Assembly (NCBI GenBank): GCA_043764315.1
Contig: JAYUKQ010000099.1
Coordinates: forward strand, 1-35,719
DNA length: 35,719 bases
Direction: 5' to 3'
Source of the DNA: a bacterium
GTDB lineage: Bacteria; Patescibacteriota; JACMRA01
The notes beneath the pieces were generated by a model, which saw only the letters and a list, made by a program, of their open reading frames with translations, did not search any database and was not told the DNA's origin. Below, one piece after another: positions 2,638-16,748 of this stretch. Position numbers and translations under genes: made by a program. The number at the start of each line of letters is the position of its first letter. Within the stretch, counting starts at the first letter, position 1.

Positions 2638-3873
2638 CTAATCATATCTAAGAGCGTCAACTACTGAAAGTTTGCCAGCTTTGTAGGCTGGATAGATTCC
2701 AAAACCAACTCCAATCAAACAAGATAACACAAAAGCAATGTACACACCAAACCAAGAATATTCGCTAACCAAAGCCAAATCTGGATTGATATAATTAGCA
2801 CCTTTGACTATTAGAATTACAAAATACTGGGCTAACATTGCGCCGAATAATCCTGACAGTGCAGTCAAAGTTATGGATTCTGAAAGGAACAAAATCAAAA
2901 TATCTCTGTTTTTAGCACCGAAAGCTTTGCGAATACCAATTTCTTTAATTCTTTGAGCAACTGCCATAAGCATTACATTAAGTACACCAATTCCACCAAC
3001 TACCAATGATATAACTGCAACCAAAGCCAAAAAAGCCTGAAAAGCAACTATAACACCATTAATTGTTTCCAAGGCTGACTTAGACGAAGCTGTAGACAAC
3101 TTACGAGCAAAATCACCCGAAAAAGTTGAAGCTCTGTACACGTTAATTTCTTCCAACAAGGCTTTACTTACATAATCAATTTGATCTTCAGTCTGAACTG
3201 CGTATAAAATTTGTTGGATATTTTGTTCTTTGGCACCTCGTAATTTCCATAGCGAAGGTAAAGGAATAATAACTTCTTTTTCGTTGCCTGTAAGTGAAGT
3301 TTCACCTTCATACTCACCAATTACCTTGAACGAAGTTTTGTTGAATTCGATCCGCTCACCAAGAAGTGAAGTTTTACCTTTAACCTCTTTGGCAAATTGT
3401 TTGGTAACCAAAGCCACATTCTCGCCAGATTCGTATTCAGGTTGGTTGAAAAATCTACCTTCTACTGTTTGAATATTCTTATTTCCTGCAATTTGTTGAA
3501 AGTTAATACCAACACCGCGGACTTGTTGATTAATAGTTTCATCAAAAATATTTTTGGTTTGAGCTTGGTAACCAGCAACTGGACTTTCAGACTCAATTGG
3601 ATACTTAGACTTGATTGACTGAAAAAACTTATAATCGGCATTAGCAATTTTGGCAGTGTCAGCACGTGAATTAAAGTCGGCATTAATCGTAATTGTGGTT
3701 GGTTTTCCAATGGATTTGGTTAAGTAACCTGAAATGTAACTTTGAGCCACTTGTCCAGTAGAAAAGATTAGAGAGACAGACATGACACCAATGGCAATTC
3801 CAAGAGCTGTTAAGATTGTACGACCTTTGTTGGCGGTAAGTTCAGCCAAAGCTGATTTGATTGTTTCAAACAT
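2638..3873 (-). CDS. MacB/FtsX-family ABC transporter permease
   Basis: RTILTALGIAIGV, GGIGVLNVMLMAVAQRIKEIGIRKAFGAK, FGIYPAYKAGKLSVVDALRYD. Confidence 0.93.
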   Translation of the reverse strand: MFETIKSALAELTANKGRTILTALGIAIGVMSVSLIFSTGQVAQSYISGYLTKSIGKPTTITINADFNSRADTAKIANADYKFFQSIKSKYPIESESPVAGYQAQTKNIFDETINQQVRGVGINFQQIAGNKNIQTVEGRFFNQPEYESGENVALVTKQFAKEVKGKTSLLGERIEFNKTSFKVIGEYEGETSLTGNEKEVIIPLPSLWKLRGAKEQNIQQILYAVQTEDQIDYVSKALLEEINVYRASTFSGDFARKLSTASSKSALETINGVIVAFQAFLALVAVISLVVGGIGVLNVMLMAVAQRIKEIGIRKAFGAKNRDILILFLSESITLTALSGLFGAMLAQYFVILIVKGANYINPDLALVSEYSWFGVYIAFVLSCLIGVGFGIYPAYKAGKLSVVDALRYD

Positions 3874-3890
3874 AACGATTTAGGATTGGA

Positions 3891-5240
3891 TTATTTAGTG
3901 TTTACAAAATAGTTAATAATAGAACCAAATATTTTTATCAATTCATTTTTGTACTCTTCTTTAACACCGTAATTATTTTCTTGAAATAAATATTGAACTT
4001 CATTAGTTGGACTCACAAAAACACCATTTGGTAATTCACTCTTTGCTTTGTTAATGTTAGCTTGAACTTCTGTGTTTAGGTTACCATCTTTTTTGATTGG
4101 TTTGTCAAATATACATGCAACATTTAGGTTTATCTCTTTTAATATTGGAATAAATTTTAGCATATCAGCATCGCTACCACAGCCGTAACCCAAAAATTCA
4201 AAATTGATATTATCAAATTCACTGCTCACAAAATCATGATATCGAACTGGATCAGTTTGCCCTTCACACAGAACAATATTCTCTGCAAAAAATAATTCTT
4301 TACCAATGTTATCAAGAACAAAGGGTCTATTTTTGTTACCTGCGATTCTAACTATTTCTTTTTTACTTTTGGCAGTAAACCAATTAGCTTTGCAATCAGT
4401 GTCATATGGTTTTGACACTCTAATTACCTGACCACCATTCTTGATAGACTTCCAATCAATAAAATTAGGTGAGTGAGTTATTATTATAATCTGTGAATTA
4501 GCTGAATATTCTGAATAGATTTTTACTAATTCTTTTTGAGCTTGTGGATGCAATGACAATTCTGGTTCATCTATTACAAGGACTCTATTTTGTAAGTTAA
4601 TTAATGGCAAAAGTAATTTGAAAATTCCAATCACCCCTTCACCAAGTGTTCCAGCTTTGTGTCCTATGTTGTTGCCTGTTGTGTATTCAACATATGCTTG
4701 ATTGTTACTAAAATTAACACTGTATCCACTAAAATTAGGTACAACTCGCTTAATAAGATTAACAAATTTAGTTTTTTCAAGCTTGCCTTCAAGACTCTGC
4801 AAAACCATTACAAATTGAGAATCTAAAGTGTATTTGTGAATTTGATAATCAAAAATATTTGTTTTTCCAACTGAACCAGTGTCAGACCATAATTTGTTAG
4901 TTCCAATCTTATATGCCCTATCTTCAAAAAACCAATTAGAATCCGTGTTATCAATTATTCCTCCGCCATCAATAGCTTTCAAAGTGTGCTTTATCCCATC
5001 GCAATCCGTCAATTCCAATAAGAAGTTATTACGAGTGGATTTTTGAACCTCTTCATCATTGATTATGGAATTAAAGCGACCAAATTTGCCAATCGCGTCA
5101 AAAATTGTACTTTTACCTGAATTATTGGATCCAACAATTATATTGAGACCAGAACCATATTTACCACAAGGTAAACTAAACTCTATAATAGTTTTACTTT
5201 GAAATCCTTTATAATTTTGGATAATTAATTTTTGGAGCAT
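3891..5240 (-). CDS. OLD-family ATP-dependent nuclease (ABC ATPase + TOPRIM)
   Basis: Walker A GSNNSGKST, Walker B/D-loop VIDEPELSLHPQAQ, H-loop ITHSP, then TOPRIM start LFFAENIVLCEGQTD and CIFD. Confidence 0.82.
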   Translation of the reverse strand: MLQKLIIQNYKGFQSKTIIEFSLPCGKYGSGLNIIVGSNNSGKSTIFDAIGKFGRFNSIINDEEVQKSTRNNFLLELTDCDGIKHTLKAIDGGGIIDNTDSNWFFEDRAYKIGTNKLWSDTGSVGKTNIFDYQIHKYTLDSQFVMVLQSLEGKLEKTKFVNLIKRVVPNFSGYSVNFSNNQAYVEYTTGNNIGHKAGTLGEGVIGIFKLLLPLINLQNRVLVIDEPELSLHPQAQKELVKIYSEYSANSQIIIITHSPNFIDWKSIKNGGQVIRVSKPYDTDCKANWFTAKSKKEIVRIAGNKNRPFVLDNIGKELFFAENIVLCEGQTDPVRYHDFVSSEFDNINFEFLGYGCGSDADMLKFIPILKEINLNVACIFDKPIKKDGNLNTEVQANINKAKSELPNGVFVSPTNEVQYLFQENNYGVKEEYKNELIKIFGSIINYFVNTK

Positions 5241-5334
5241 ATTGTTGGTTTGTGTTAAAAAAAATCTACTGCCTGATTTGTTAATCTTTTATTTGGATAA
5301 AATATTTTTGAGCATAATCCAGATAGTTTTATTT

Positions 5335-6021
5335 TTACTCATCCACAACTAATCCGTCTTTGAGTCTAATTACCCGATTAAAATGAGAAGCCAAATCATC
5401 GTCATGAGTTACAAAAATTACAGTTTTGCCAAATTCTGAATTGAGTCTAAAAATCTCTGCCATAACCTGATCAGTTGTCTTGGAATCCAGTGCTCCTGTA
5501 GGTTCATCACCAATAATAATATCAGGATCATTGACTAGACTTCTAGCCATAGCTACACGTTGTTGTTGCCCACCTGAAAGTAACTTGGGTAGTTTTTTGG
5601 CTTGATCAACTATATCAAATTTTTCTAATAATTCCATAGCAATCGTGTTACGGTTATGCCACTTAGAGCGATCAGAACTGTAGTATAATGGAGCTGTAAC
5701 ATTATCAATTACATTAAGCTTAGGTAAAAGATTAAACTGTTGAAAAATAAAACCAAAAGTCTTATTGCGAGTAATTGCTCTTTCTCTGTCTGAAAGCTTA
5801 GCAACATCTTTGCCGTTTAGAAAATACTGACCAGCCGTCGGAAAATCCAAAAGTCCCAATATATTAAGAAGCGTGGATTTGCCGGAGCCAGACTTACCAA
5901 GAAGTGCCATTGTTTCACCACGTGCAATCTCCAGATCGATACCTTTGATTACTAGTTGTTGCTGTTTTTCCACTTGATAGAACTTCTGGATTCCGTGAAA
6001 TGTAATTATATTATCAGTCAT
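5335..6021 (-). CDS. ABC transporter ATP-binding protein (LolD/MacB type)
   Basis: [45 protein letters not shown]. Confidence 0.95.
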
Positions 6022-6023
6022 AA

Positions 6024-8102
6024 TTATTTAACCAAATTTGCATCTTGTAGTTCTTGTTTATCTTTTTCAACTTTAGGAAATATACTAAAAACAAAATCAC
6101 CTTCGTTAATACCAGATTTGATTTCGACGTTTCGACCATCATCAAGTCCAGCTTCTACATTAATTGCTTTGATAGATTTGAATTTGTAAGTTTTGATCAT
6201 TTCGGATGCTTGATTATTACTGTTTTGACCAAGAGAACGAGTATTAATTCTAGGAACTCCGTTTCGACCAAGACTAACTGGACCGCGACCTTGTTGCTGC
6301 GAAGCTTGACCTTGTTGCTCTACTGGATCAATGCCAACATAAATTTGACCATCAAATAAACTACTTGTTGGCACGATTAGAACTTGCTTTTGTTCGCCAA
6401 GAATTACGTCAACGTTGGACGTCTCACCGCTAGAGAATTGATACTTGTCAGTCTGTAGAAGATTAACAAAAACATCATATTCTAGCGCTGTAACAGTTGC
6501 TGTCGTTGGATTGGGTGCAAGATTCAATTCACTAATTGTCAGATTATCAAGTTCTGGATACTTGTCCACTTTGACATTTTGACCAATTTTGACCTTGGAG
6601 CGATTATCAGCAGAAACCACGAATCTAAGACGATATTCACCAGAGACAACCTTAATTACATTCTCACGAGAAGCAGCCACTAATCCTTGTTGCTTATAAA
6701 CTCTTGCTACAACACCAGATTTTTTGGCAGAGATAGATTTATTTTTATCTTGTTTGGTGACATCTTCTTGAGTATCAGCTAATGATTTTTGGGCATTATT
6801 AAGGCTTACTTTGGCAGCGGCATTTTTTTGATCTGTTCCAGAAGCGGTTTGGTCAAGTTGAGATTTGGTTACACCTTGTTGAGTTTCTAGGTCACGAATT
6901 ACTTTTTCTTTGGCGAGAATTTGTTCATCGTAAGTTTTGACTTCTTGACTGTCATCAATCTGTTTGATCCAAGTTTTGCGACTAGTTATATCAGACTTAT
7001 ATTCTTGTTTTTGAGTATCCAAACGAGTATTTTTGGCTTGATCTGTAATATTAGTGTTAATGTCAGCTAGAACTGGTCGTTGATAAAAACTACTATTCTT
7101 GAGACGGTCAATCTTGGCTTGCAAGTCGTTAATCTGTGAACTCAAATCGCTAGAATTAGATGTAGCTTGATTGTTGGCATTATTAGCTTGTTGTTGAGTC
7201 AAAGCCAAGTTGTCGCTGGCTGTTTTGAACTGTGAATAAAGAGCGTTACAGTTAACTACACTGAATTGTGAAGCAGCGGAAGAAGTGCTAGATAATGGAA
7301 TTGGATTACCATTTGGACATTGAGTTGTGAATTGAGTGGAAAGTGAATCAACTTGTTGTCGCTGGGTGTTAGCTTGTACTTGAGCTGCAAGAGGTTGGTT
7401 ACTTGGAGTGGTAGAATCTCTCTGTCGACGCAAAACATCAATTTTGTCTTGATATTGCCTAATCGCATCGTTGACATCTCGAGTGTTTTCAATTTCGGCG
7501 TATTGTTTTTCTAATTCAGTTTTTTCAATTTCATATTTAGTTTTTTTGTCGGCTAATTCTTTGGCTTTGTCTTCACGGCGTTGAATTAATTCATTGTATT
7601 CAGTATATCTATTCTTTAGATTAGTACTCATTTGAGACATATTAGCTTCAGTAACTTTTCTAGTATCGCCCAGAGATCGGTTGTTATTAACAATTTCTTG
7701 ATTAATAGTTTTGATTTGGTTTTCGACTGTTGTCGTTCTAACTTTGGCAGTTTCGTTAACAAAATCTAATTTGGCTAGAATTTGACCTTCACTAACTTTA
7801 TCACCAACTTTGACTGATATTTCTTTTAGTTCAGAATCTTGATACACTGGTAGATCATAATCGTAAGTATATTCAGCCGTGGCTTGAACCGAAATCTTCT
7901 TGGAAACGTCGCCTTTAATAACTGCAACAGCTTGAGATTGTTGAGAGGATTTTTTGGCAGAAGGAAAATAAGTCAAAAAAATTGGAACTAAAAGTAAAGC
8001 TAACAATAATAAAGGAATTGTAATTTTCCAGATCCAGCTAATTATGAATTTGATCCAACTCCAGATTTTGGCAAGAATTGAAGTTGAGTTGTTTTTGAAC
8101 AT
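6024..8102 (-). CDS. MacA/HlyD-like periplasmic adaptor with very long coiled-coil hairpin
   Basis: N-terminal TM; lipoyl half-motifs ISVKVGDKVSEGQILAKLD and ISAKKSGVVARV; C-terminal VLIVPTSSL...VEAGLDDGRNVEIKSGINEGDFV; about 340 aa Q/K/E/N-rich helical insert. Confidence 0.85.
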   Translation of the reverse strand: MFKNNSTSILAKIWSWIKFIISWIWKITIPLLLLALLLVPIFLTYFPSAKKSSQQSQAVAVIKGDVSKKISVQATAEYTYDYDLPVYQDSELKEISVKVGDKVSEGQILAKLDFVNETAKVRTTTVENQIKTINQEIVNNNRSLGDTRKVTEANMSQMSTNLKNRYTEYNELIQRREDKAKELADKKTKYEIEKTELEKQYAEIENTRDVNDAIRQYQDKIDVLRRQRDSTTPSNQPLAAQVQANTQRQQVDSLSTQFTTQCPNGNPIPLSSTSSAASQFSVVNCNALYSQFKTASDNLALTQQQANNANNQATSNSSDLSSQINDLQAKIDRLKNSSFYQRPVLADINTNITDQAKNTRLDTQKQEYKSDITSRKTWIKQIDDSQEVKTYDEQILAKEKVIRDLETQQGVTKSQLDQTASGTDQKNAAAKVSLNNAQKSLADTQEDVTKQDKNKSISAKKSGVVARVYKQQGLVAASRENVIKVVSGEYRLRFVVSADNRSKVKIGQNVKVDKYPELDNLTISELNLAPNPTTATVTALEYDVFVNLLQTDKYQFSSGETSNVDVILGEQKQVLIVPTSSLFDGQIYVGIDPVEQQGQASQQQGRGPVSLGRNGVPRINTRSLGQNSNNQASEMIKTYKFKSIKAINVEAGLDDGRNVEIKSGINEGDFVFSIFPKVEKDKQELQDANLVK

Positions 8103-8200: not shown

Positions 8201-8629
8201 TTAAACTCTAATTCTGTTGAGAATAATTAGCAGTTGACTAAGCTCTAATTCAGATAATGATTCATACATTTCTGCCATAGTTGTATCGTGTTCTTTTTTC
8301 ATTTTTTGATGCATTGTCTGTCCGAATTCGGAAAGTTCTATATACACAGTTCGCCTATCGGTAGGATTATAACGCCTAACAACTATTTTATGCTCAACCA
8401 GCTTATCGACTAATTGAGTTGCGCCAGCAGCTTTGAGGTTCATTGTCGTTGACAAATCAGACATTTTAATAGATTTGAATTTACCGATTATAAGGTAAGC
8501 TTCGAGCTGCAAAATGGTAAGATCAGTAACTATATTCTTACCTTTGGACATCAGTTTATGGTGAAAAGAATCACGTAAAACATCCATCTGATCAATAATC
8601 TGTTGAGTTAATTCAAGTTTGGAATTCAT
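8201..8629 (-). CDS. MarR family transcriptional regulator
   Basis: LTILQLEAY...ATQLVDKLVEHKIVVRRYNPTDRRTVYIELSEFG winged helix with DRR motif; heads the exporter operon. Confidence 0.92.
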   Translation of the reverse strand: MNSKLELTQQIIDQMDVLRDSFHHKLMSKGKNIVTDLTILQLEAYLIIGKFKSIKMSDLSTTMNLKAAGATQLVDKLVEHKIVVRRYNPTDRRTVYIELSEFGQTMHQKMKKEHDTTMAEMYESLSELELSQLLIILNRIRV

Positions 8630-8661: not shown

Positions 8662-8781
8662 CTATAAGATTAACCCTGTTGTCAACAATAGCTAATGAAT
8701 AATAGTAATTATACTAATAATACTACCCTTCTTCCACAAAAACAACTCTACGATGACTGAAGATGATAGTTTTTTGGGTAT

Positions 8782-8827
8782 AAAAATTCCCTCTTTTGGA
8801 GGGGTGAAACGAGGTGTCAGGAGGTAT
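8782..8827 (-). repeat. Degenerate REP-like element
   Basis: aaaaattccctcttttggaggggtgaaacgaggtgtcaggagg resembles the 2369-2421 element. Confidence 0.55.
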
Positions 8828-8885
8828 CTGAATAATTACTAATTTTTTGGATTCTAGGTCACAATTACAAGTATAAACAAAATAA

Positions 8886-9584
8886 CTACACTAAGCCAAG
8901 TTGAAGTTTGAGGTTCTCTGGGGCAAAAGACATTGCAAGTTTTTGGGCAATATCTTGATTGAGTATATCTTTTTTGAATATAAGTTGTATTCCACTTGGA
9001 CAAGATTCATCTTCTAAAATCACAAAAGCAATTTTGCCGCTAGTTCTAATAGTTTTGACTCTACCTGCAACTGTAATATTCTGCTTTGGACGGATTGATA
9101 AGTCTACGCTTTCGCCAGTATTTTCTTCACCATTTAGTTCAGCTTTGTCTACAACCAGTGAATAGAATAAGTCTTCTTTTTCAGCTTTATTCTTATCTTG
9201 AAGACTAGGAAGTAAAGCTCGAATTTCCTGCACCAAGTTCTCATCGTAATTGACATCAGTTGTGTCTATATCTTTGTCTGGATCCATACCCATTTGGCGG
9301 ACTGTATGACGCATTTGGATTTTTTCTTCAAAGGTTTCTACAAGTGTCGGTGGAAACATAGCTTGGTACAGATAATGCTCGAGAAGAAAATTAGTCTCAT
9401 CAGACTGTAACTTAGTAAGGTCAAACTTGTGAATGAAATCAAACCAGAATTTGACGAATCCAAGTTCAAAATCACGATGACTTACAACTGGAAAAGGATC
9501 AAAATTGTTTGCTTTTAGTTCATCCATTTTTTGGAGACGAATACTACGTTGAGCTTGAATATTGGAAGTATTGGAATTGGACAT
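8886..9584 (-). CDS. lysS: Lysyl-tRNA synthetase N-terminal subunit (N-helix plus first half of anticodon-binding OB fold)
   Basis: RSIRLQKMDELKANNFDPFP corresponds to the LysRS N-terminal helix; ITVAGRVKTIRTSGKIAFVILEDES..GIQLIFKKD corresponds to OB strands 1-3; about 130 aa insertion; ends in TAG. Confidence 0.85.
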   Translation of the reverse strand: MSNSNTSNIQAQRSIRLQKMDELKANNFDPFPVVSHRDFELGFVKFWFDFIHKFDLTKLQSDETNFLLEHYLYQAMFPPTLVETFEEKIQMRHTVRQMGMDPDKDIDTTDVNYDENLVQEIRALLPSLQDKNKAEKEDLFYSLVVDKAELNGEENTGESVDLSIRPKQNITVAGRVKTIRTSGKIAFVILEDESCPSGIQLIFKKDILNQDIAQKLAMSFAPENLKLQLGLV

Positions 9585-9635
9585 TTGGATTGGAGATTAT
9601 TAAAATTTGATTGGAGGTTTGATCAATTTGGGTTA

Positions 9636-9680
9636 GTACCCCTTCTAAGGGGTCAAAGCGATAGCTTTGGGGGTTTAGGT
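9636..9680 (-). repeat. REP-like double hairpin between the two lysS pieces
   Basis: accccttctaaggggt followed by caaagcgatagctttg and ggggtt; same architecture as the 884 and 2369 elements. Confidence 0.65.
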
Positions 9681-9719
9681 TAAGTCTGACATCTTTACGC
9701 AATATTAAACCAAAAAATA

Positions 9720-12119
9720 CTATTCACCCATTTCGTAAGCAACTTTGATTGTTCCTTTTTTGGATTGGATTTTGCGGATTTTGATAGAATTGAGTTCACG
9801 AGTATTGTTGATATGAGTTCCACCACAACCACATTGTAAAGTTTTGAAATAGGTGTTATCTTGACCTTGAATAACGATTTTGCGAGATACTTCCACACCT
9901 GATTGTTTGACTTTGGTATCTTGGGAGTACATTGGAACAAAATCTAATTCTTGTAATCGCAGCTCATTAACTTTGTCTTCAATCTTAGTTATAAGCTCTG
10001 TAGTCACATCGACTTCGCCGTAATATTGAACGTACGGACCAGCTGGAAATGAATAACCTTTGTCTGATTCCCAAGTCAAACCTAATTCACTAATAGCAAA
10101 ATCAATCAAGTGAGCCGCGGAATGTAATTGAATATTTTGGATTCTAGCTTCCGAATTGACTTTGAGATTAACTTCATTGCCACAATTAATATCGGAGTTT
10201 AGTTCGTTTTCAAAATATCCAAAATGCTTTACAATCCCTTCTTCTTTAATGCACTTAGTAACAACAAAATAGTCATTTGGGTTCAAAAACACTTTTCCAG
10301 TATCGCTTGGTTGACCTCCACCTTGAGGATAAAATATTGTTTTATCAAGCATAATATATGTCCCAATTTCATTAACGATAATATCGGTAACTTTGGCGGT
10401 AGATTCGTACCTATAACTATCTTGCCAGTATTCCAATATAGTTCCACCGTGCCAGTTGATTTGGTCAAAAGTAATTGTTTCAATAGCGGTTTCAACTGTA
10501 AATTCAGGTTCGGATTCCGAATTTGTTTTATTCTCTAAAGCTTTTTTTTCTGTTTCCTGAATATTACTCACTCCCAAAGCCTCTAGCTCTTTTGAATACT
10601 TTAGAATTTGATCCTGTAAATATTTGATTTTAGACTCTTTGATTGTTTTGGAATTGTTTATTTCTTGTCTAATATGTGGAAAAGTGACACATTCACGAAT
10701 ATGTTTACCAAGTAGAAACGATACAACTCGCTCTGAAGTTCCAAAGCCAGACATTGGCGGCATACCATATTCCATAGCTTTGACATAGTTCATATCCATG
10801 AATTGAGCCTCTTCATTGCCAGCGTCTCTGGCTTCTTGTTGTTTCTCAAAACGACCAAATTGATCAATCGGATCATTAAGCTCACTAAAAGCTTTGCCCA
10901 GTTCAGCTCCGCCCGCAACTACTTGCCATCGTTGAGTCAATTCGGGATTACTCGGATCACGCTTTGCTAGTGGCTCTAATTCGACAGGAGGCAAAACCAA
11001 AAAGAAAGGATTAGTTGTATTCACACGAGATTTTTTCCAGAGTTTGTCCATGAGTGTACCTCTTCCATCTTCTATTCTTACATCGTTGATATCATTAGAC
11101 TTACACATTGCCAGCAATTCTTCATCAGTCTTATTCTCGGTATCAATTCCCCCACCAGAAAAATAACGCACAGCTTCAAAGTATGGAATCTTAGGCCAGC
11201 CAGCTAAACCATCTTTGATAGTTGCAATTAGCTCCCAATTCATTTTTTTGGCTTCTGAAAGGCTACACCATTCTCCCCAATTAATATCGGCACCGTTATA
11301 AGCAACTTGATTCATTTTGCCAAGTATTTCTTCAACAACTCGTTGATACACTCTCTTTACAAACTTAGCTGCCCAGTCGTAATCAGTGTAAGCACAATAC
11401 CATTCAATCTGTGTATATTCTTGAAGATGCTGCGGACTCGATCCTTCGTTACGAAAAATTCTACCAATCTCAAAAACCCTTTCAAAACCTCCAGCTACAA
11501 GCTTCTTAAGAGGTAATTCAAGCGATATTCTAAGATACATTTCTTGATCTAACTCGTTATAAAAGGTTGTAAAAGGCTTAGCTTCTGCTCCACCTGGAAC
11601 CGATTCAAAAACTGGACACTCGACTTCAAGAAACCCTTCACTTTCCATTTCTTCACGCCATATCTGCCAATATTTGGCTTTGTAACGTACAATGTCACGG
11701 ATAGCTAAGCCATTCTCATCTTTGGTGTTCATTTTAAAATCAGCTACACGATCAAGATAACGAGATTCTATGTTCGTATAATCCATTATTTCTGGTAAAG
11801 GTCTAAGCGACTTAGCCAAAACCTTGTAATCATTAACAAAAATTGAAGCTTCTCCAGTTTGTGAATAATCCATCATACCAGTTACTTGAAGATAATCTCC
11901 TTCATCGATAAGATTCTTAAAATGATCAAAAGTTAGTGAGATTAATTGAGTATCATCCAGAGCTTTGGTTAGCAAATCATTGAGCATCTTAGAACCGTCC
12001 TGTGGCAAATAAAAACCTTTGTGAATACCTTTTAAAACGTCTTCAAGAGCTGTAGTTAAACCGATTGTGTTAGACCACTCTAATTGTTGAGGAGATAAGA
12101 ATTTGGAAACTAATGACAT
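9720..12119 (-). CDS. lysS: Lysyl-tRNA synthetase class II C-terminal subunit (second half of OB fold plus catalytic domain) fused to an AlaX editing domain
   Basis: IDEGDYLQVTG..SQTGEAS..LAKSLRPLPE, GGAEAKPF, YLRISLEL, motif 2 FRNEG, SELNDP, motif 3 YGMPPMSGFGTSER; C-terminal TIFYPQGGGQPSDTG, HSAAH, CGGTH. Confidence 0.93.
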   Translation of the reverse strand: MSLVSKFLSPQQLEWSNTIGLTTALEDVLKGIHKGFYLPQDGSKMLNDLLTKALDDTQLISLTFDHFKNLIDEGDYLQVTGMMDYSQTGEASIFVNDYKVLAKSLRPLPEIMDYTNIESRYLDRVADFKMNTKDENGLAIRDIVRYKAKYWQIWREEMESEGFLEVECPVFESVPGGAEAKPFTTFYNELDQEMYLRISLELPLKKLVAGGFERVFEIGRIFRNEGSSPQHLQEYTQIEWYCAYTDYDWAAKFVKRVYQRVVEEILGKMNQVAYNGADINWGEWCSLSEAKKMNWELIATIKDGLAGWPKIPYFEAVRYFSGGGIDTENKTDEELLAMCKSNDINDVRIEDGRGTLMDKLWKKSRVNTTNPFFLVLPPVELEPLAKRDPSNPELTQRWQVVAGGAELGKAFSELNDPIDQFGRFEKQQEARDAGNEEAQFMDMNYVKAMEYGMPPMSGFGTSERVVSFLLGKHIRECVTFPHIRQEINNSKTIKESKIKYLQDQILKYSKELEALGVSNIQETEKKALENKTNSESEPEFTVETAIETITFDQINWHGGTILEYWQDSYRYESTAKVTDIIVNEIGTYIMLDKTIFYPQGGGQPSDTGKVFLNPNDYFVVTKCIKEEGIVKHFGYFENELNSDINCGNEVNLKVNSEARIQNIQLHSAAHLIDFAISELGLTWESDKGYSFPAGPYVQYYGEVDVTTELITKIEDKVNELRLQELDFVPMYSQDTKVKQSGVEVSRKIVIQGQDNTYFKTLQCGCGGTHINNTRELNSIKIRKIQSKKGTIKVAYEMGE

Positions 12120-12256
12120 ATTTGTACAGCTTGAGTAAATCTTACTCTTTGGTCAAACAACTCAAATGCAAACATTTTTAAAATCAATCAATTGCTCAAA
12201 ACAAAAACTTACCTTAGACTTGTATTAATTAGCAAAAATAAAAATTCAAAAATAAA

Positions 12257-13024
12257 ATGATTACACAAAAATTACAACGAAAATATATAAGGGGGGTAGA
12301 AACAGCAATTGAAAATGAAGCGAATTTACAAACTTCAGATGAATTATCAAGGACTAAAAGAGTTTTATCTAAATTCTTCACCGCACGAAATGCTTTGATT
12401 AGCGGAGGAGGACTTATAGCACTTTTGAATTTTGCACAACCAGCATTTTCTCAAGTAGCGGTAGAGGCAGAAGATTCGATACCTGTACCAATAGAACAAC
12501 AATCAAATTTACCAGCAGCAACAAAAGATAATGTTGAAATACCAAATCTTCCCCATCTTCCACCAAGAGTAAAACCAATAAGTTCCAATGAAAGACCAAT
12601 AGTTAGACCTCCAAGTGCAGATGAATTAAATTTAGATCGCCAACCCTTAACAGTGAATCAAGAAGGTTACAATAACACGTTTAACAACAACCGACCATCC
12701 ACATTATTCAACGGAAGCACTAGAACAGGAGATAAAAGTGGTATCAAATTCGAAGTTAAAAGCAATAATGGAAGAGTAGAAGCTGGTGCAAGTCTCACTT
12801 ACATTTTTGGAGAAGGTGCAGATCGCGCAGTTGAAAAAGATAGAGTAAGAAGTCAATTAGAGAGTTTACAAGTACAAACTAATGGAGCAACAGCAATTGA
12901 AGGAATTAAAGGATGTACGGAAATTGCAAAAAGTATACCAACCTCTGAAAGAGGTGAATTCTATTTAAATTGTATGAAAGCGGCTACGGAAGGAACAGTT
13001 GCTCTACCAATTCCAAAAAAATAA
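12257..13024 (+). CDS. Hypothetical secreted protein
   Basis: 255 aa ORF; hydrophobic segment ending AQPAFS/Q after a ~45 aa charged N-terminal region; Pro-rich linker; C-terminal Cys pair. Confidence 0.7.
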   Translation: MITQKLQRKYIRGVETAIENEANLQTSDELSRTKRVLSKFFTARNALISGGGLIALLNFAQPAFSQVAVEAEDSIPVPIEQQSNLPAATKDNVEIPNLPHLPPRVKPISSNERPIVRPPSADELNLDRQPLTVNQEGYNNTFNNNRPSTLFNGSTRTGDKSGIKFEVKSNNGRVEAGASLTYIFGEGADRAVEKDRVRSQLESLQVQTNGATAIEGIKGCTEIAKSIPTSERGEFYLNCMKAATEGTVALPIPKK

Positions 13025-13041: not shown

Positions 13042-14196
13042 TTACTTCAAGCTTCTCAAAAAACTCATTAACTTGGGTTTCTTTTTGTGTTGAATTGTAA
13101 TGTACTTCATGGCTTCGTCAAAATAATCTGAATAACCCAAAATTCTCCATTTGGTCATAGTTTTTTCTAGTTCGGAATAATCTCCAACAGGCAAAAAATC
13201 CGACCACATTTTGACTTGATTCAAGATTCTAATTTCAATTGACTCTCGTTGCTCTGGAATAAGATGGCAAATATCAAGTAACAATTCACAATCAAAATAC
13301 TGCAAGTTACCCTCCAAAAAACTAGTGTACACAGACGACAACACAAAGTCTAACCAAATTTCGCTTTGACCTTCAAAATCTTCCTTAAGCCTTGCTAGAA
13401 TTTCACCTTTATCTGAATCTTCCAAGCTTTTTACTGTAGAATTAATCAGGTGATCAAAAGGTTTGGTGAGTACTGCAAAACGCAATTTCCAAACTTCTGA
13501 CCAAAAAGACAGTCGCTGCCTATCAATAAAATTTGGCAATAGATCCAAACAAAATTGCCACCAACGAGTTCCATCTAACTTAAGAGCAGTAAGAATCAAA
13601 TACAAAGCTTTTTTTTCGTTTTCATACTGGCGAAGCTGTGAAGTGAAGTAAGTTGAGATTTGGTTTTGGAAGTCGGTATAATCAACTTGGTTTTTTTGGA
13701 AATCAAAGATGAATTGTTCCCACCAAAAAATATTCTGTTGCCGAGATTGGCTAAAGTACGTATCCAAATGACCTAGAAGTTTGCGTTGTTTGGATTGCTG
13801 TTCTACCGCAAAGATTGAACCTAAAATTGAATCTTCCACTTTTTGATCCAGTTTTTGCTTGCCTTGAATATCAAAAAACTCTTTTTCCAAATCGTGACAA
13901 ACAGCTACAATATGCTTACATAAGCCAAATTCTGAAAAGTAAGGACAAGTACAACTAACGAATTGATTAATAGCTTCATCGGCTTGAGCGAACTTCGATC
14001 TAGGAAGTAAAAAGTGCAACAAAGGCATTCTAACTATGTACACTTCAGTCCCAAGAACCTTATATTCTCGCCAATTATCTAAGAGCAAATTCTTGTGAGA
14101 CAATACTCCACCTTCAAGATATAATCTAACTCCACGATCAAAAATACTCTTGGGAACTTGGTTTTGAACTAATTGTAGATAACTAAAAATTGACAT
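13042..14196 (-). CDS. SWIM zinc finger domain protein
   Basis: IFDRGVRLY and SCTCPYFSEFGLCKHIVAV (CxC...CxH). Start moved to ATG 14196, behind TTGACC-17-CAAAAT. Confidence 0.85.
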   Translation of the reverse strand: MSIFSYLQLVQNQVPKSIFDRGVRLYLEGGVLSHKNLLLDNWREYKVLGTEVYIVRMPLLHFLLPRSKFAQADEAINQFVSCTCPYFSEFGLCKHIVAVCHDLEKEFFDIQGKQKLDQKVEDSILGSIFAVEQQSKQRKLLGHLDTYFSQSRQQNIFWWEQFIFDFQKNQVDYTDFQNQISTYFTSQLRQYENEKKALYLILTALKLDGTRWWQFCLDLLPNFIDRQRLSFWSEVWKLRFAVLTKPFDHLINSTVKSLEDSDKGEILARLKEDFEGQSEIWLDFVLSSVYTSFLEGNLQYFDCELLLDICHLIPEQRESIEIRILNQVKMWSDFLPVGDYSELEKTMTKWRILGYSDYFDEAMKYITIQHKKKPKLMSFLRSLK

Positions 14197-14304
14197 TATA
14201 AAAGCATTTTGAGACCAGTGAACCTTTTGGTCAAGGAAAATCTTTGGAAATAAAAACCTCAAATCTAAAGGATTAACCCTTTGGAAAGTAATTTTTAAAA
14301 CAAT

Positions 14305-14352
14305 TTTAAATTGACTCGCTTGAGGGGCTTGCACGAAGCGACTGGGGTTTTT
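14305..14352 (-). repeat. REP-like element
   Basis: Reverse complement aaaaccccagtcgcttcgtgcaagcccctcaagcgagtcaattt matches the 884/35632 family. Confidence 0.65.
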
Positions 14353-15884: not shown

Positions 15885-16748
15885 CTATTTAATTTTAACC
15901 AAAAAACCAGAGGGCAAACCAACACCAGATTCACATTGTTGAACTAATTCTTCAGCTACAACCTTCTTTTCAGGGAATAGTTTGGAAACTAAAATTTGCA
16001 ACAAAGCTGGGGTGAATCTAGGAGAATGTAGTGTAACTATCATCATACCATTTTTGGACAAAAGTTGATAAGAAGTCTTAAGCAATTTGACCAAATCATC
16101 TTCGATCTTAAAAACTTCACCTTTGGTTCCACGCCCATAACTTGGAGCGTCAAGCATAATTGCAGGATATTTGGCTTCACGGCGAACTTCACGAGCGATG
16201 AATTTGTATACATCTTCAAGTATGAATCTTTGACCTTGGCGATCAACTCCGTTATTGTCTAAGTTTTCGGTGTATCGATCCATGGAAGCTCGAGAAGAAT
16301 CTACTGCAGTAATTTTGTAACCTTCCGTCGCTAGCGAAACACAACTCGAACCAGAGTAAGTGAATAGGTTAAGAATTTTGCAGTTAGGTACGAATTCATC
16401 TTTGAGAGCTGGACCATACAGCCAGTGTTCCGCAAAAACACCAATGTTGCCGTATTCATTCGGTTCTATAATCCACTTAACACCGTCACTGGACTCAAGT
16501 TCAAATTCCATTGGAATACCAATTCCCTGCTTGTTACGCTTAGTATCTGGATCTAATTTTAGATTTTTCCATCTACCTTTTTCACCTTCCACAAGTGCAA
16601 ATTCAGCGTCAGCATCTTGCCAATACTTGGTCAAAGAATCTTCATCAATATCCCAGAGAGCTTGAGGACAAGGTCTAATCACTTTAAAATCTCCAAGCAT
16701 TTCTACTTTTTTTTGGTTGCCACAATCTAACAAACGGTATAAAGACAT
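15885..16748 (-). CDS. Class I SAM-dependent methyltransferase (RlmI/RlmK-like)
   Basis: YRLLDCGNQKKVE, RPCPQALW, IGVFAEH, ILNLFTYSGS, MLDAPSYGRG. Confidence 0.87.
   Translation of the reverse strand: MSLYRLLDCGNQKKVEMLGDFKVIRPCPQALWDIDEDSLTKYWQDADAEFALVEGEKGRWKNLKLDPDTKRNKQGIGIPMEFELESSDGVKWIIEPNEYGNIGVFAEHWLYGPALKDEFVPNCKILNLFTYSGSSCVSLATEGYKITAVDSSRASMDRYTENLDNNGVDRQGQRFILEDVYKFIAREVRREAKYPAIMLDAPSYGRGTKGEVFKIEDDLVKLLKTSYQLLSKNGMMIVTLHSPRFTPALLQILVSKLFPEKKVVAEELVQQCESGVGLPSGFLVKIK

What the first reader, a model, noticed from the sequence alone, without database searches (positions are those of the whole stretch)
8886..12119. Split, gene-order-permuted lysyl-tRNA synthetase: anticodon-binding OB fold divided between two genes
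Seen: the 232 aa ORF carries the LysRS N-terminal helix and OB strands 1-3 (VAGRVKTIRTSGKIAFVILED..GIQLIFKKD) and then ends with a ~25 aa tail. The 799 aa ORF has a novel ~60 aa N-terminal extension and resumes exactly where the other stops (FKNLIDEGDYLQVTG..TGEAS..LAKSLRPLPE). The pieces are complementary and non-overlapping. The C-terminal piece is transcribed first, so a frameshift or single sequencing error cannot explain the split. Each piece has its own candidate -35 box (TTGACC 12151-12156; TTGATC 9621-9626). Known: class II LysRS is normally one polypeptide; split aaRS genes exist (AlaRS in Nanoarchaeum, LeuRS in Aquifex). Inference: a heteromeric LysRS whose OB barrel assembles in trans, with the new tails and the ~130 aa insertion acting as docking surfaces.
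Basis: partly seen in the sequence, partly recalled or inferred. Interest (0 to 1): 0.88.

Follow-up and report, generated by a model that had tools for sequence, protein, structure and literature searches.

The report
Naturally split lysyl-tRNA synthetase genes
The only lysyl-tRNA synthetase of this small-genome uncultured bacterium is encoded as two separate genes that cut its tRNA-anticodon-binding barrel in half, a conserved arrangement in its relatives that most likely gives a two-subunit enzyme.

Summary
ORF 8886-9584(-) (232 aa) matches the lysine--tRNA ligase profile at positions 40-99 of 496. ORF 9720-12119(-) (799 aa) matches positions 97-494 and then carries an AlaX-like editing domain.

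- **Not an artefact or a decaying gene.** All 5 genomes of the genus and 1 genome of a second genus have the same two pieces, on different contigs in the five other genomes. None has an intact class II or class I LysRS.
- **Widespread.** Protein databases hold 22 full-length stand-alone N-pieces, in at least 7 clusters at 50% identity.
- **Break point.** It lies in a length-variable loop between OB strand 3 and the OB helix.
- **Assembly.** A complex prediction pairs strand 1 with 4 and strand 3 with 5 across the chains. Score 0.84 against a best control of 0.00. This may partly reflect likeness to solved LysRS structures.
The C-before-N gene order is peculiar to this genome, and the ~130-aa insertion predates the split.

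Verdict: a true, conserved, intradomain gene fission of LysRS. It is a new variant of the known kind "split aaRS". Binding and activity are not shown experimentally.

The parts
9720..12119 (-). LysRS-C gene (799 aa): N-extension, second half of the OB fold, class II catalytic domain, linker, AlaX-like domain
   Evidence: ORF. NF001756 365.9 bits at profile positions 93-488 of 488. 34 solved LysRS chains match at E<=1e-40.
11946..12119 (-). N-terminal extension of the C-piece (residues 1-58). It is predicted helical and has no counterpart in intact relatives.
   Evidence: Alignments (invariant L3, L21, L29, L49). Helices 3-7, 10-18, 22-33 and 39-57 at pLDDT 68-81 in an otherwise poor model. Residues 3-54 are in the predicted interface. 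Homologous in register to the extension in genus g12.
11799..11945 (-). OB helix and OB strands 4 and 5 (residues 59-107)
   Evidence: Pfam OB profile positions 29-75 of 75. Helix 64-73 and strands 76-84 and 92-101. Residues 73-81 and 92-95 touch N-piece residues 170-176 and 200-203.
10662..11702 (-). Class II catalytic domain (residues 140-486)
   Evidence: Pfam tRNA-synt_2 184.7 bits at residues 140-483. Aligned to solved LysRS chains.
9759..10430 (-). AlaX-like (alanyl-tRNA editing type) C-terminal domain (residues 564-787)
   Evidence: NCBIfam AlaXM 92.9 bits (below its cut-off of 300), Pfam tRNA-synt_2c C-terminal part and tRNA_SAD. An HxxxH and a CxxxH pattern are visible in the translation; the meaning of these patterns is recalled, not tested.
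9585..9719 (.). 135-nt spacer between the two genes. It holds the hexamer TTGATC (9626-9621) and a short GC hairpin (about 9639-9652). No terminator-like site was found.
8886..9584 (-). LysRS-N gene (232 aa): N-terminal helix, all-alpha insertion, OB strands 1-3, tail
   Evidence: ORF. TIGR00499 profile positions 40-99. 22 full-length stand-alone homologues.
9090..9464 (-). About 125-aa all-alpha insertion (residues 41-165) between the N-terminal helix and the OB fold. It predates the split.
   Evidence: Present in intact relatives. Helices 41-53, 66-76, 81-97, 115-123, 126-130 and 133-143. No fold match at E<=0.001.
8967..9089 (-). OB strands 1-3 (residues 166-206)
   Evidence: Pfam OB profile positions 1-36 of 75. 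Strands 175-182, 185-192 and 195-204.
8889..8966 (-). 26-aa tail (residues 207-232), two short predicted helices, F220 invariant
   Evidence: Residues 207-231 are in the predicted interface.
8789..8803 (-). Terminator-like hairpin downstream of the N-piece gene
   Evidence: It is a consensus match only: 3 such sites were found against 2.5 expected.

Best explanation
The housekeeping class II lysyl-tRNA synthetase of this lineage has undergone a gene fission inside its anticodon-binding OB domain and now works as two polypeptides.

- **LysRS-N (232 aa)** supplies the N-terminal helix, a lineage-specific all-alpha insertion, OB strands 1-3 and a two-helix tail.
- **LysRS-C (799 aa)** supplies a four-helix N-terminal extension, the OB helix, OB strands 4-5, the catalytic domain and an AlaX-like domain.
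- **Assembly (predicted).** The chains associate so that strand 1 pairs with strand 4 and strand 3 with strand 5, closing the barrel in trans. The tail and the extension add extra interface.
- **Stoichiometry (inferred).** Class II LysRS dimerises through its catalytic domain, so the holoenzyme is probably N2C2.
- **Transcription (inferred).** In this genome the two genes are probably co-transcribed, C first. In congeners they are unlinked, so the order is not part of the mechanism.

Shown here: the complementary break, its conservation, and that no intact copy was found in six genomes that are 64-78% complete. Predicted only: binding. Not tested: aminoacylation.
For: 1. Complementary profile coverage: positions 40-99 against 97-494 of 496.
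2. The same two-piece form occurs in all 5 genomes of genus g1 and in G015 of genus g12, which is 6 of the 26 genomes of the family. Identity of the g1 genomes to G000 is 41-53% for the N-piece (39% for G015) and 58-76% for the C-piece. There are no internal stops.
3. In all six genomes the only strong LysRS match starts at profile position 90-97. Every other match scores <=97.9 bits and looks Asp/AsnRS-like. No class I LysRS passes its cut-off.
4. tRNA-Lys(UUU) and tRNA-Lys(CUU) genes are present.
5. 23 short homologues were found among 187 candidates. 22 of them are 226-256 aa and come from JGI, ENA and Logan assemblies, some on contigs of up to 808 kb.
6. Of the 13 library representatives at E<=1e-30, 8 are <=297 aa. 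The 7 that I read all stop 19-63 residues after strand 3.
7. The tail and the extension are conserved.
8. Complex prediction: ipSAE 0.86, 0.84 and 0.84, best of 3 controls 0.00, runs agree in >=97% of contacts, partner pLDDT >=79. That mark was reached by 58 of 80 solved complexes and 2 of 110 mismatched pairs; these counts hold only roughly here because my own alignments were used. The closest pairs are C 73-81 with N 170-176 and C 92-95 with N 200-203.
Against: - No experiment supports it, and no RNA run was listed for the locus.
- All six genomes are incomplete (64-78%), so a missing intact gene cannot be formally excluded in any one of them.
- The complex pass may come from the model's memory of solved one-chain LysRS structures. 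It shows that the halves fit that fold, not that they bind.
- The AF2 models are mediocre to poor: N-piece alone pLDDT 67.8, C-piece alone pLDDT 51.8 with only 7 sequences.
- The catalytic-core tree does not group the split forms, so their history is not simple.
Confidence: 0.8

Rival explanations
1. The C-piece alone is the working LysRS, with a reduced anticodon-binding module. The N-piece has drifted to a separate role, for example a free tRNA-binding or chaperone-like protein, and does not form a stable complex.
For: The genes are unlinked in five other genomes. The N-piece carries a large extra helical domain of unknown fold. Known LysRS paralogues of the EpmA/GenX type work without any OB domain (recalled).
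Against: The C-piece keeps exactly strands 4-5 and the OB helix, which cannot fold as a barrel alone. N-piece strands 1-3 hold many of the N-piece's invariant columns (G174, R175, G183, K184, I185, F187, D192, Q200, K204, D206). The predicted contacts close the barrel. In all 6 split genomes both pieces were found.
Confidence: 0.09
2. It is an artefact or decay: a misassembly, or a broken lysS pseudogene, while the true LysRS lies in unassembled parts of the genome.
For: The genome is 73% complete in 130 contigs. The only sequencing run that holds the locus may be the source sample itself.
Against: The same break is seen in 6 genomes and in 22 full-length database proteins from several sources. 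Frames are open at 39-53% (N-piece) and 38-76% (C-piece) identity. No intact LysRS of either class was found in any of the six genomes. Residues in the new tail and extension are conserved.
Confidence: 0.03
3. The two products are rejoined after synthesis, by a split intein (protein trans-splicing) or by RNA trans-splicing, to give a normal one-chain LysRS.
For: Both pieces carry extra sequence exactly at the break, as split-intein halves would.
Against: There is no intein or Hint family hit in Pfam at E<=0.01. The extension's invariant residues are leucines and the tail's is a phenylalanine. There is no conserved Cys/Ser at the start of the tail, and no conserved His-Asn followed by a nucleophile at the end of the extension (the intein requirements are recalled). 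The tail (19-63 aa) is far shorter than natural N-inteins (recalled). No RNA family was found in the window other than one tRNA.
Confidence: 0.03

Closest known systems
Canonical bacterial class II LysRS (E. coli LysS/LysU, Geobacillus LysRS; PDB 1bbu, 1e1o/1lyl, 3a74/3e9h)
   Same: Same catalytic domain and same OB anticodon-binding fold. C-piece residues 63-486 align to these chains at E 1e-72 to 1e-78. N-piece strands 1-3 superpose on LysU over 48 columns at rmsd 3.3 (a weak E-value of 0.43).
   Different: Those enzymes are one polypeptide. Here the chain is cut between OB strand 3 and the OB helix (about LysS residues 100-110 by the alignment). Also added are about 125 aa in the N-terminal region, a 26-aa tail, a 58-aa extension and a C-terminal AlaX-like domain.
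Naturally split or 'fissed' aaRS (AlaRS, PheRS and PylRS isoforms; Nanoarchaeum AlaRS, Aquifex LeuRS, bacterial PylSn/PylSc)
   Same: An essential synthetase is encoded by two genes whose products must assemble. The genes need not be adjacent.
   Different: LysRS is not among the fissed forms listed in the passage of PMC11580382 that I read. The other examples are recalled. In the recalled cases the break is usually described as lying between domains or at insertion modules. Here it runs through a single small beta-barrel domain, and both new ends have gained conserved helical extensions.
Engineered split aaRS and fragment complementation
   Same: Synthetases cut at surface loops can reassemble non-covalently.
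   Different: Those are laboratory constructs. For PMC9974479 I saw only the search listing and the start of the abstract. This is a natural, conserved case.
EpmA/GenX (PoxA), the LysRS paralogue without an anticodon-binding domain
   Same: A LysRS-type catalytic core that lacks a complete OB domain in the same chain.
   Different: The C-piece scores 341-366 bits on the LysRS models against 131 bits on genX (cut-off 286.9). It keeps half an OB fold and is the only LysRS-like enzyme found in the genome.

Membership tests
Class II lysyl-tRNA synthetase (LysRS-II) | Class II catalytic core of the D/K/N subclass that scores best as LysRS | tested here: met
   Pfam tRNA-synt_2 184.7 bits. NF001756 365.9 bits and TIGR00499 341.2 bits, against Asp/AsnRS models at <=88 bits. 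34 solved LysRS chains match at E<=1e-40. The scores are below the full-length cut-offs (468 and 427.6) because the first ~95 profile positions are on the other gene.
Class II lysyl-tRNA synthetase (LysRS-II) | Complete N-terminal OB anticodon-binding domain | tested here: met
   Met only by the two genes together: OB profile positions 1-36 on the N-piece and 29-75 on the C-piece. The intact relative G012 has positions 1-75 in one chain.
Class II lysyl-tRNA synthetase (LysRS-II) | One polypeptide per protomer | tested here: not met
   Two ORFs in this window, and separate contigs in five other genomes.
Class II lysyl-tRNA synthetase (LysRS-II) | Charges tRNA-Lys with lysine | not testable with these tools
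   Only indirect evidence: it is the sole LysRS-like gene set found, and tRNA-Lys UUU and CUU genes are present.
Naturally split (heteromeric) aaRS | Two complementary, conserved ORFs and no intact copy in the genome | tested here: met
   The genomes are 64-78% complete.
Naturally split (heteromeric) aaRS | The two products bind and are both needed for activity | tested here: inconclusive
   Prediction only: score 0.84 against a best control of 0.00. The pass may rest on likeness to solved one-chain LysRS.
Split intein (protein trans-splicing) | Hint-fold halves with a conserved nucleophile at the N-junction and His-Asn plus a nucleophile at the C-junction | tested here: not met
   No Hint or intein family hit. 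The invariant residues of the tail and extension are F and L only. The motif requirements are recalled.
EpmA/GenX | Passes the genX model and acts beside a separate full LysRS | tested here: not met
   genX 131.3 bits, below its cut-off of 286.9. No other LysRS was found.
AlaX trans-editing domain (C-terminal part of the C-piece) | AlaX/AlaRS editing-domain homology with zinc-binding patterns | tested here: inconclusive
   AlaXM 92.9 bits, below its cut-off of 300. tRNA_SAD 24.8 bits against a cut-off of 24. HxxxH and CxxxH patterns are visible. Activity and substrate are unknown.

The most novel reading that the evidence does not exclude
The fission happened once and created a portable docking pair: the N-piece tail plus the four-helix extension of the C-piece. 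This pair uncouples the anticodon-reading half from the catalytic half.

Since then the two halves have had separate histories. Catalytic cores of two deep types (A and B) have been swapped behind the same extension by recombination between lineages, and the N-piece gene moves freely around the genome. The N-piece could thus act as a separately dosed specificity or regulatory subunit of an essential synthetase.
Probability: 0.2. Interest if true: 0.8.

Novelty: new variant of a known kind. Interest (0 to 1): 0.62.

Why it matters
Split synthetases are rare natural experiments on how modular these ancient enzymes are. This one cuts through a single five-stranded barrel, not between domains, and yet it is kept in an essential, single-copy enzyme across a whole clade.

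If both chains are needed, three things follow:
- It gives a natural model for assembly of an OB fold in trans.
- It gives a natural pair of docking helices that could be reused for engineered split synthetases.
- It is a clear case of gene fission in a reduced-genome uncultured bacterium, comparable to the split genes of Nanoarchaeum.

It also warns annotators. Both pieces are labelled 'lysyl-tRNA synthetase class II' in source databases, and both fall below the curated full-length cut-offs.

Tried and rejected
**Tail as a duplicated copy.** I tested whether the N-piece tail is a duplicate of the OB helix or of the start of the C-piece extension, as an overlap left by a duplication. Column-shuffle tests gave observed scores reached by 620 of 2000 shuffles (helix) and 1586 of 2000 shuffles (extension), so neither is above chance. 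hhalign of the extension profile against the N-piece profile gave probability 0.1-0.2%. BLASTP of the 60-aa extension against those of G015 and G002 gave nothing. The profile test did detect the G015 similarity.

**Fold of the N-piece.** Foldseek against the PDB found no match at E<=0.001. Only the three strands hit LysRS/AspRS OB domains, and weakly.

**Metagenome and genome contig scans.** Each returned only 5 loci. The 5 metagenome loci are all intact one-chain LysRS of 780-833 aa. The 5 genome loci were genomes I already had through the genome search, with uninformative titles.

**Expression.** No RNA holder was listed. The two sediment runs of the same study hold next to none of the words, which is no proof of absence.

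**dN/dS.** Not computed. DNA was available only for genomes at about 40-53% N-piece identity, where synonymous sites are saturated.

**Adjacency in the closest relatives.** P0002 with P0025, and P0003 with P0026, each list the same longest-contig length.

**Taxonomy.** Record titles say only 'bacterium'. 'CPR/Patescibacteria-like' is my inference from genome sizes of 0.7-1.6 Mb in the same phylum.

**Literature.** Six searches found no natural split LysRS. I read passages of three papers. Supplements were closed and were not asked for.
Full report
**What is there.** On the minus strand the window has a 799-aa ORF (9720-12119), a 135-nt spacer, and then a 232-aa ORF (8886-9584).

- The small ORF matches the OB anticodon-binding profile only at positions 1-36 of 75. 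It matches the bacterial LysRS models only at positions 40-99 of 496 (TIGR00499) and 49-96 of 488 (NF001756).
- The large ORF matches the OB profile at positions 29-75 and the LysRS models at positions 97-494 and 93-488. It then carries an AlaX-like domain at residues 564-787.
- An intact relative has the whole OB profile 1-75 in one chain.

The pieces are complementary, they overlap by about three profile positions at most, and the C-terminal piece is encoded first.

**Is it real?** The window is contig 99 of a 1.15-Mb genome in 130 contigs, 73% complete.

- A Logan contig from run X1 spans 8700-12300 in one piece with two substitutions and no indel. That run may be the source sample, so it is not independent.
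- The stronger evidence is comparative. In 41 genomes searched, counting G000, the N-piece matched in 27. In G000-G004 (all five genomes of the genus) and in G015 (another genus) it lies in a 235-250-aa frame that ends just after strand 3. In the other matching genomes it lies inside frames of 498-1049 aa.
- Within the family, 14 of 26 genomes match at E<=1e-15. Six of those are the short form and eight are frames of 799-1049 aa.
- In the five other split genomes the C-piece is on a different contig from the N-piece. It starts with a homologous extension in G001, G002, G004 and G015. In G003 it is cut by the contig end.
- The 5.8-billion-protein collection holds 23 short homologues among 187 candidates. 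Of these, 22 are 226-256 aa and one is a 137-aa fragment, which I left out of alignment A1.
- A profile search of 1.84 billion representatives gave 347 hits at E<=0.001 and 13 at E<=1e-30. Eight of the 13 are <=297 aa and five are 546-802 aa. The seven short ones that I read all stop 19-63 residues after strand 3.

**Is it the working enzyme?**

- In G000 the LysRS model finds only the two pieces plus two weaker matches. One is an 81-bit match (profile positions 45-325) that I take to be Asp/AsnRS without checking. The other is a contig-end fragment that reads to me like an AspRS C-terminus. The class I model finds nothing.
- In G001-G004 and G015 the best match again starts at profile position 90-97, and nothing else exceeds 97.9 bits. 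The only class I hit is 17.7 bits.
- Six incomplete genomes (64-78%) all lack an intact copy, which is hard to ascribe to chance. No single one of them proves absence.
- tRNA-Lys(UUU) and tRNA-Lys(CUU) genes are present.
- The catalytic part aligns to 34 solved LysRS chains at E<=1e-40.

**Anatomy of the break.** Aligned with 14 intact relatives, the cut falls in the linker between OB strand 3 and the OB helix that precedes strand 4. That linker varies from about 12 to about 60 residues in the intact proteins.

- The split forms have extra sequence on both new ends. One is a 26-aa tail with two predicted short helices and F220 invariant in 22 sequences. The other is a 58-aa extension, predicted as four helices, with L3, L21, L29 and L49 invariant in 7 sequences.
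- Neither shows homology to the other, to the OB helix or to the rest of the N-piece.
- The ~125-aa all-alpha insertion in the N-piece (residues 41-165) also occurs in intact relatives (G006, G008, G009, G012, G014, G017, G018, G023, G025). It therefore predates the fission. It has no fold match.

**Assembly.** The complex prediction used N-piece alignment A1 against residues 1-495 of C-piece alignment A2.

- It scored 0.86, 0.84 and 0.84 against 0.00 for all three controls. The runs agreed in >=97% of contacts, and partner pLDDT was >=79.
- That mark was reached by 58 of 80 solved complexes and 2 of 110 mismatched pairs. These counts hold only roughly here because my own alignments were used.
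- The most certain contacts are C 73-81 with N 170-176 and C 92-95 with N 200-203. These are strand 4 on strand 1 and strand 5 on strand 3, which I recall as the pairings that close an OB barrel.
- Extension residues 3-54 and tail residues 207-231 are also listed in the interface. The insertion contributes only residues 44-45, 48-49, 52 and 132.
- Halves of a split gene tend to pass by likeness to solved one-chain structures. This shows that the halves fit the LysRS fold. It does not show that they bind.

**Expression and gene order.**

- No terminator-like site lies between the two genes, and one lies after the N-piece (8803-8789). Co-transcription is therefore plausible but only inferred.
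- The C-then-N order is not conserved. In congeners the C-piece keeps some of the window's neighbours: the homologue of 6024-8102 in G001 and of 15885-16748 in G003. The N-piece sits elsewhere.

**History.**

- On a tree of the catalytic core (33 rows) the family's LysRS falls into two deep types. The g1 C-pieces lie in a 12-row clade of type A, mixed with intact genes. G015 is sister to the intact G006 in type B.
- AU tests reject all six split cores as one clade (p 0.000175). They also reject the five g1 cores as one clade (p 0.0035). Both groups were tested after I had seen the tree.
- Yet the G015 extension matches the g1 extensions in register and without gaps (z 5.8; 0 of 5000 shuffles).
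- The tree of the N-terminal region does not rule out one origin. It has 41 rows; 13 of 54 rows lacking the insertion were dropped.
- Congeneric genomes carry different core types: G005 against G022, and G008 against G023. G008 and G023 are sisters in the N-terminal tree.
- I read this as one fission followed by replacement of catalytic cores by recombination. Repeated fission of an ancestor that already had the helical insert is not excluded. This part is inference.

**Comparison with what is known.**

- A review passage lists fused and fissed isoforms for GlyRS, AlaRS, PheRS and PylRS, but not LysRS (PMC11580382, passages).
- Six full-text searches found no natural split LysRS.
- PMC5370408 (passages) notes Microgenomates LysRS with an added C-terminal OB-like domain, so odd LysRS architectures in such bacteria are on record.
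- The Nanoarchaeum AlaRS, Aquifex LeuRS and PylSn/PylSc cases are recalled from memory.

I file this as a new variant of a known kind: a conserved, intradomain fission of LysRS-II with newly acquired docking ends.

**Limits.** There is no experiment, no expression data and no closed genome.

Noticed in passing
window 9759-10430 (-); relatives: An AlaX-like editing-type domain is fused to the C-terminus of a LysRS. Relatives have it fused (G004, G013, G008, G023) or free-standing (G002 C83, G012 C39, G017 C2, G029 C34). An AlaX-like appendage on a non-alanine synthetase appears, from a search listing only, to be reported for Plasmodium TrpRS (PMC3680381).
   Followed up: partly
L045 (G012), L020 (G002), L039 (G008), P0026; absent at window about 10560-10650: Most LysRS genes of this family carry a C-terminal DUF2000 (PF09391) domain, and some carry DUF2000 plus AlaX. 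The window's C-piece has lost DUF2000 but kept AlaX (gap in alignment A2).
   Followed up: partly
loci of G005/G022 and G008/G023: Two deeply diverged LysRS catalytic-core types coexist in one family, and even within one genus. The N-terminal regions of G008 and G023 are sisters. This suggests mosaic genes made by recombination or replacement.
   Followed up: partly
window 2638-8102 (-): There is a MacB-type efflux set: a MacB_PCD/FtsX permease at 2638-3873, an ABC ATPase at 5335-6021, and a 692-aa protein without a Pfam hit at 6024-8102. It is interrupted by an AAA_15/AAA_21 ATPase ORF at 3891-5240. A MarR-family regulator at 8201-8629 lies just downstream of the N-piece.
   Followed up: no
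window about 9639-9652 (-), in the spacer between the two LysRS genes: A short perfect GC-rich palindrome (6+6 bases around 2) with no T-run after it. It might be an RNA hairpin between the two cistrons.
   Followed up: no
window 13042-14334 (-) and 12257-13024 (+): A 430-aa SWIM zinc-finger protein, and a 255-aa ORF with no family hit, flank the C-piece upstream. A homologue of the SWIM protein also lies beside the LysRS gene in G010 (L026, similar N-terminal sequence).
   Followed up: no
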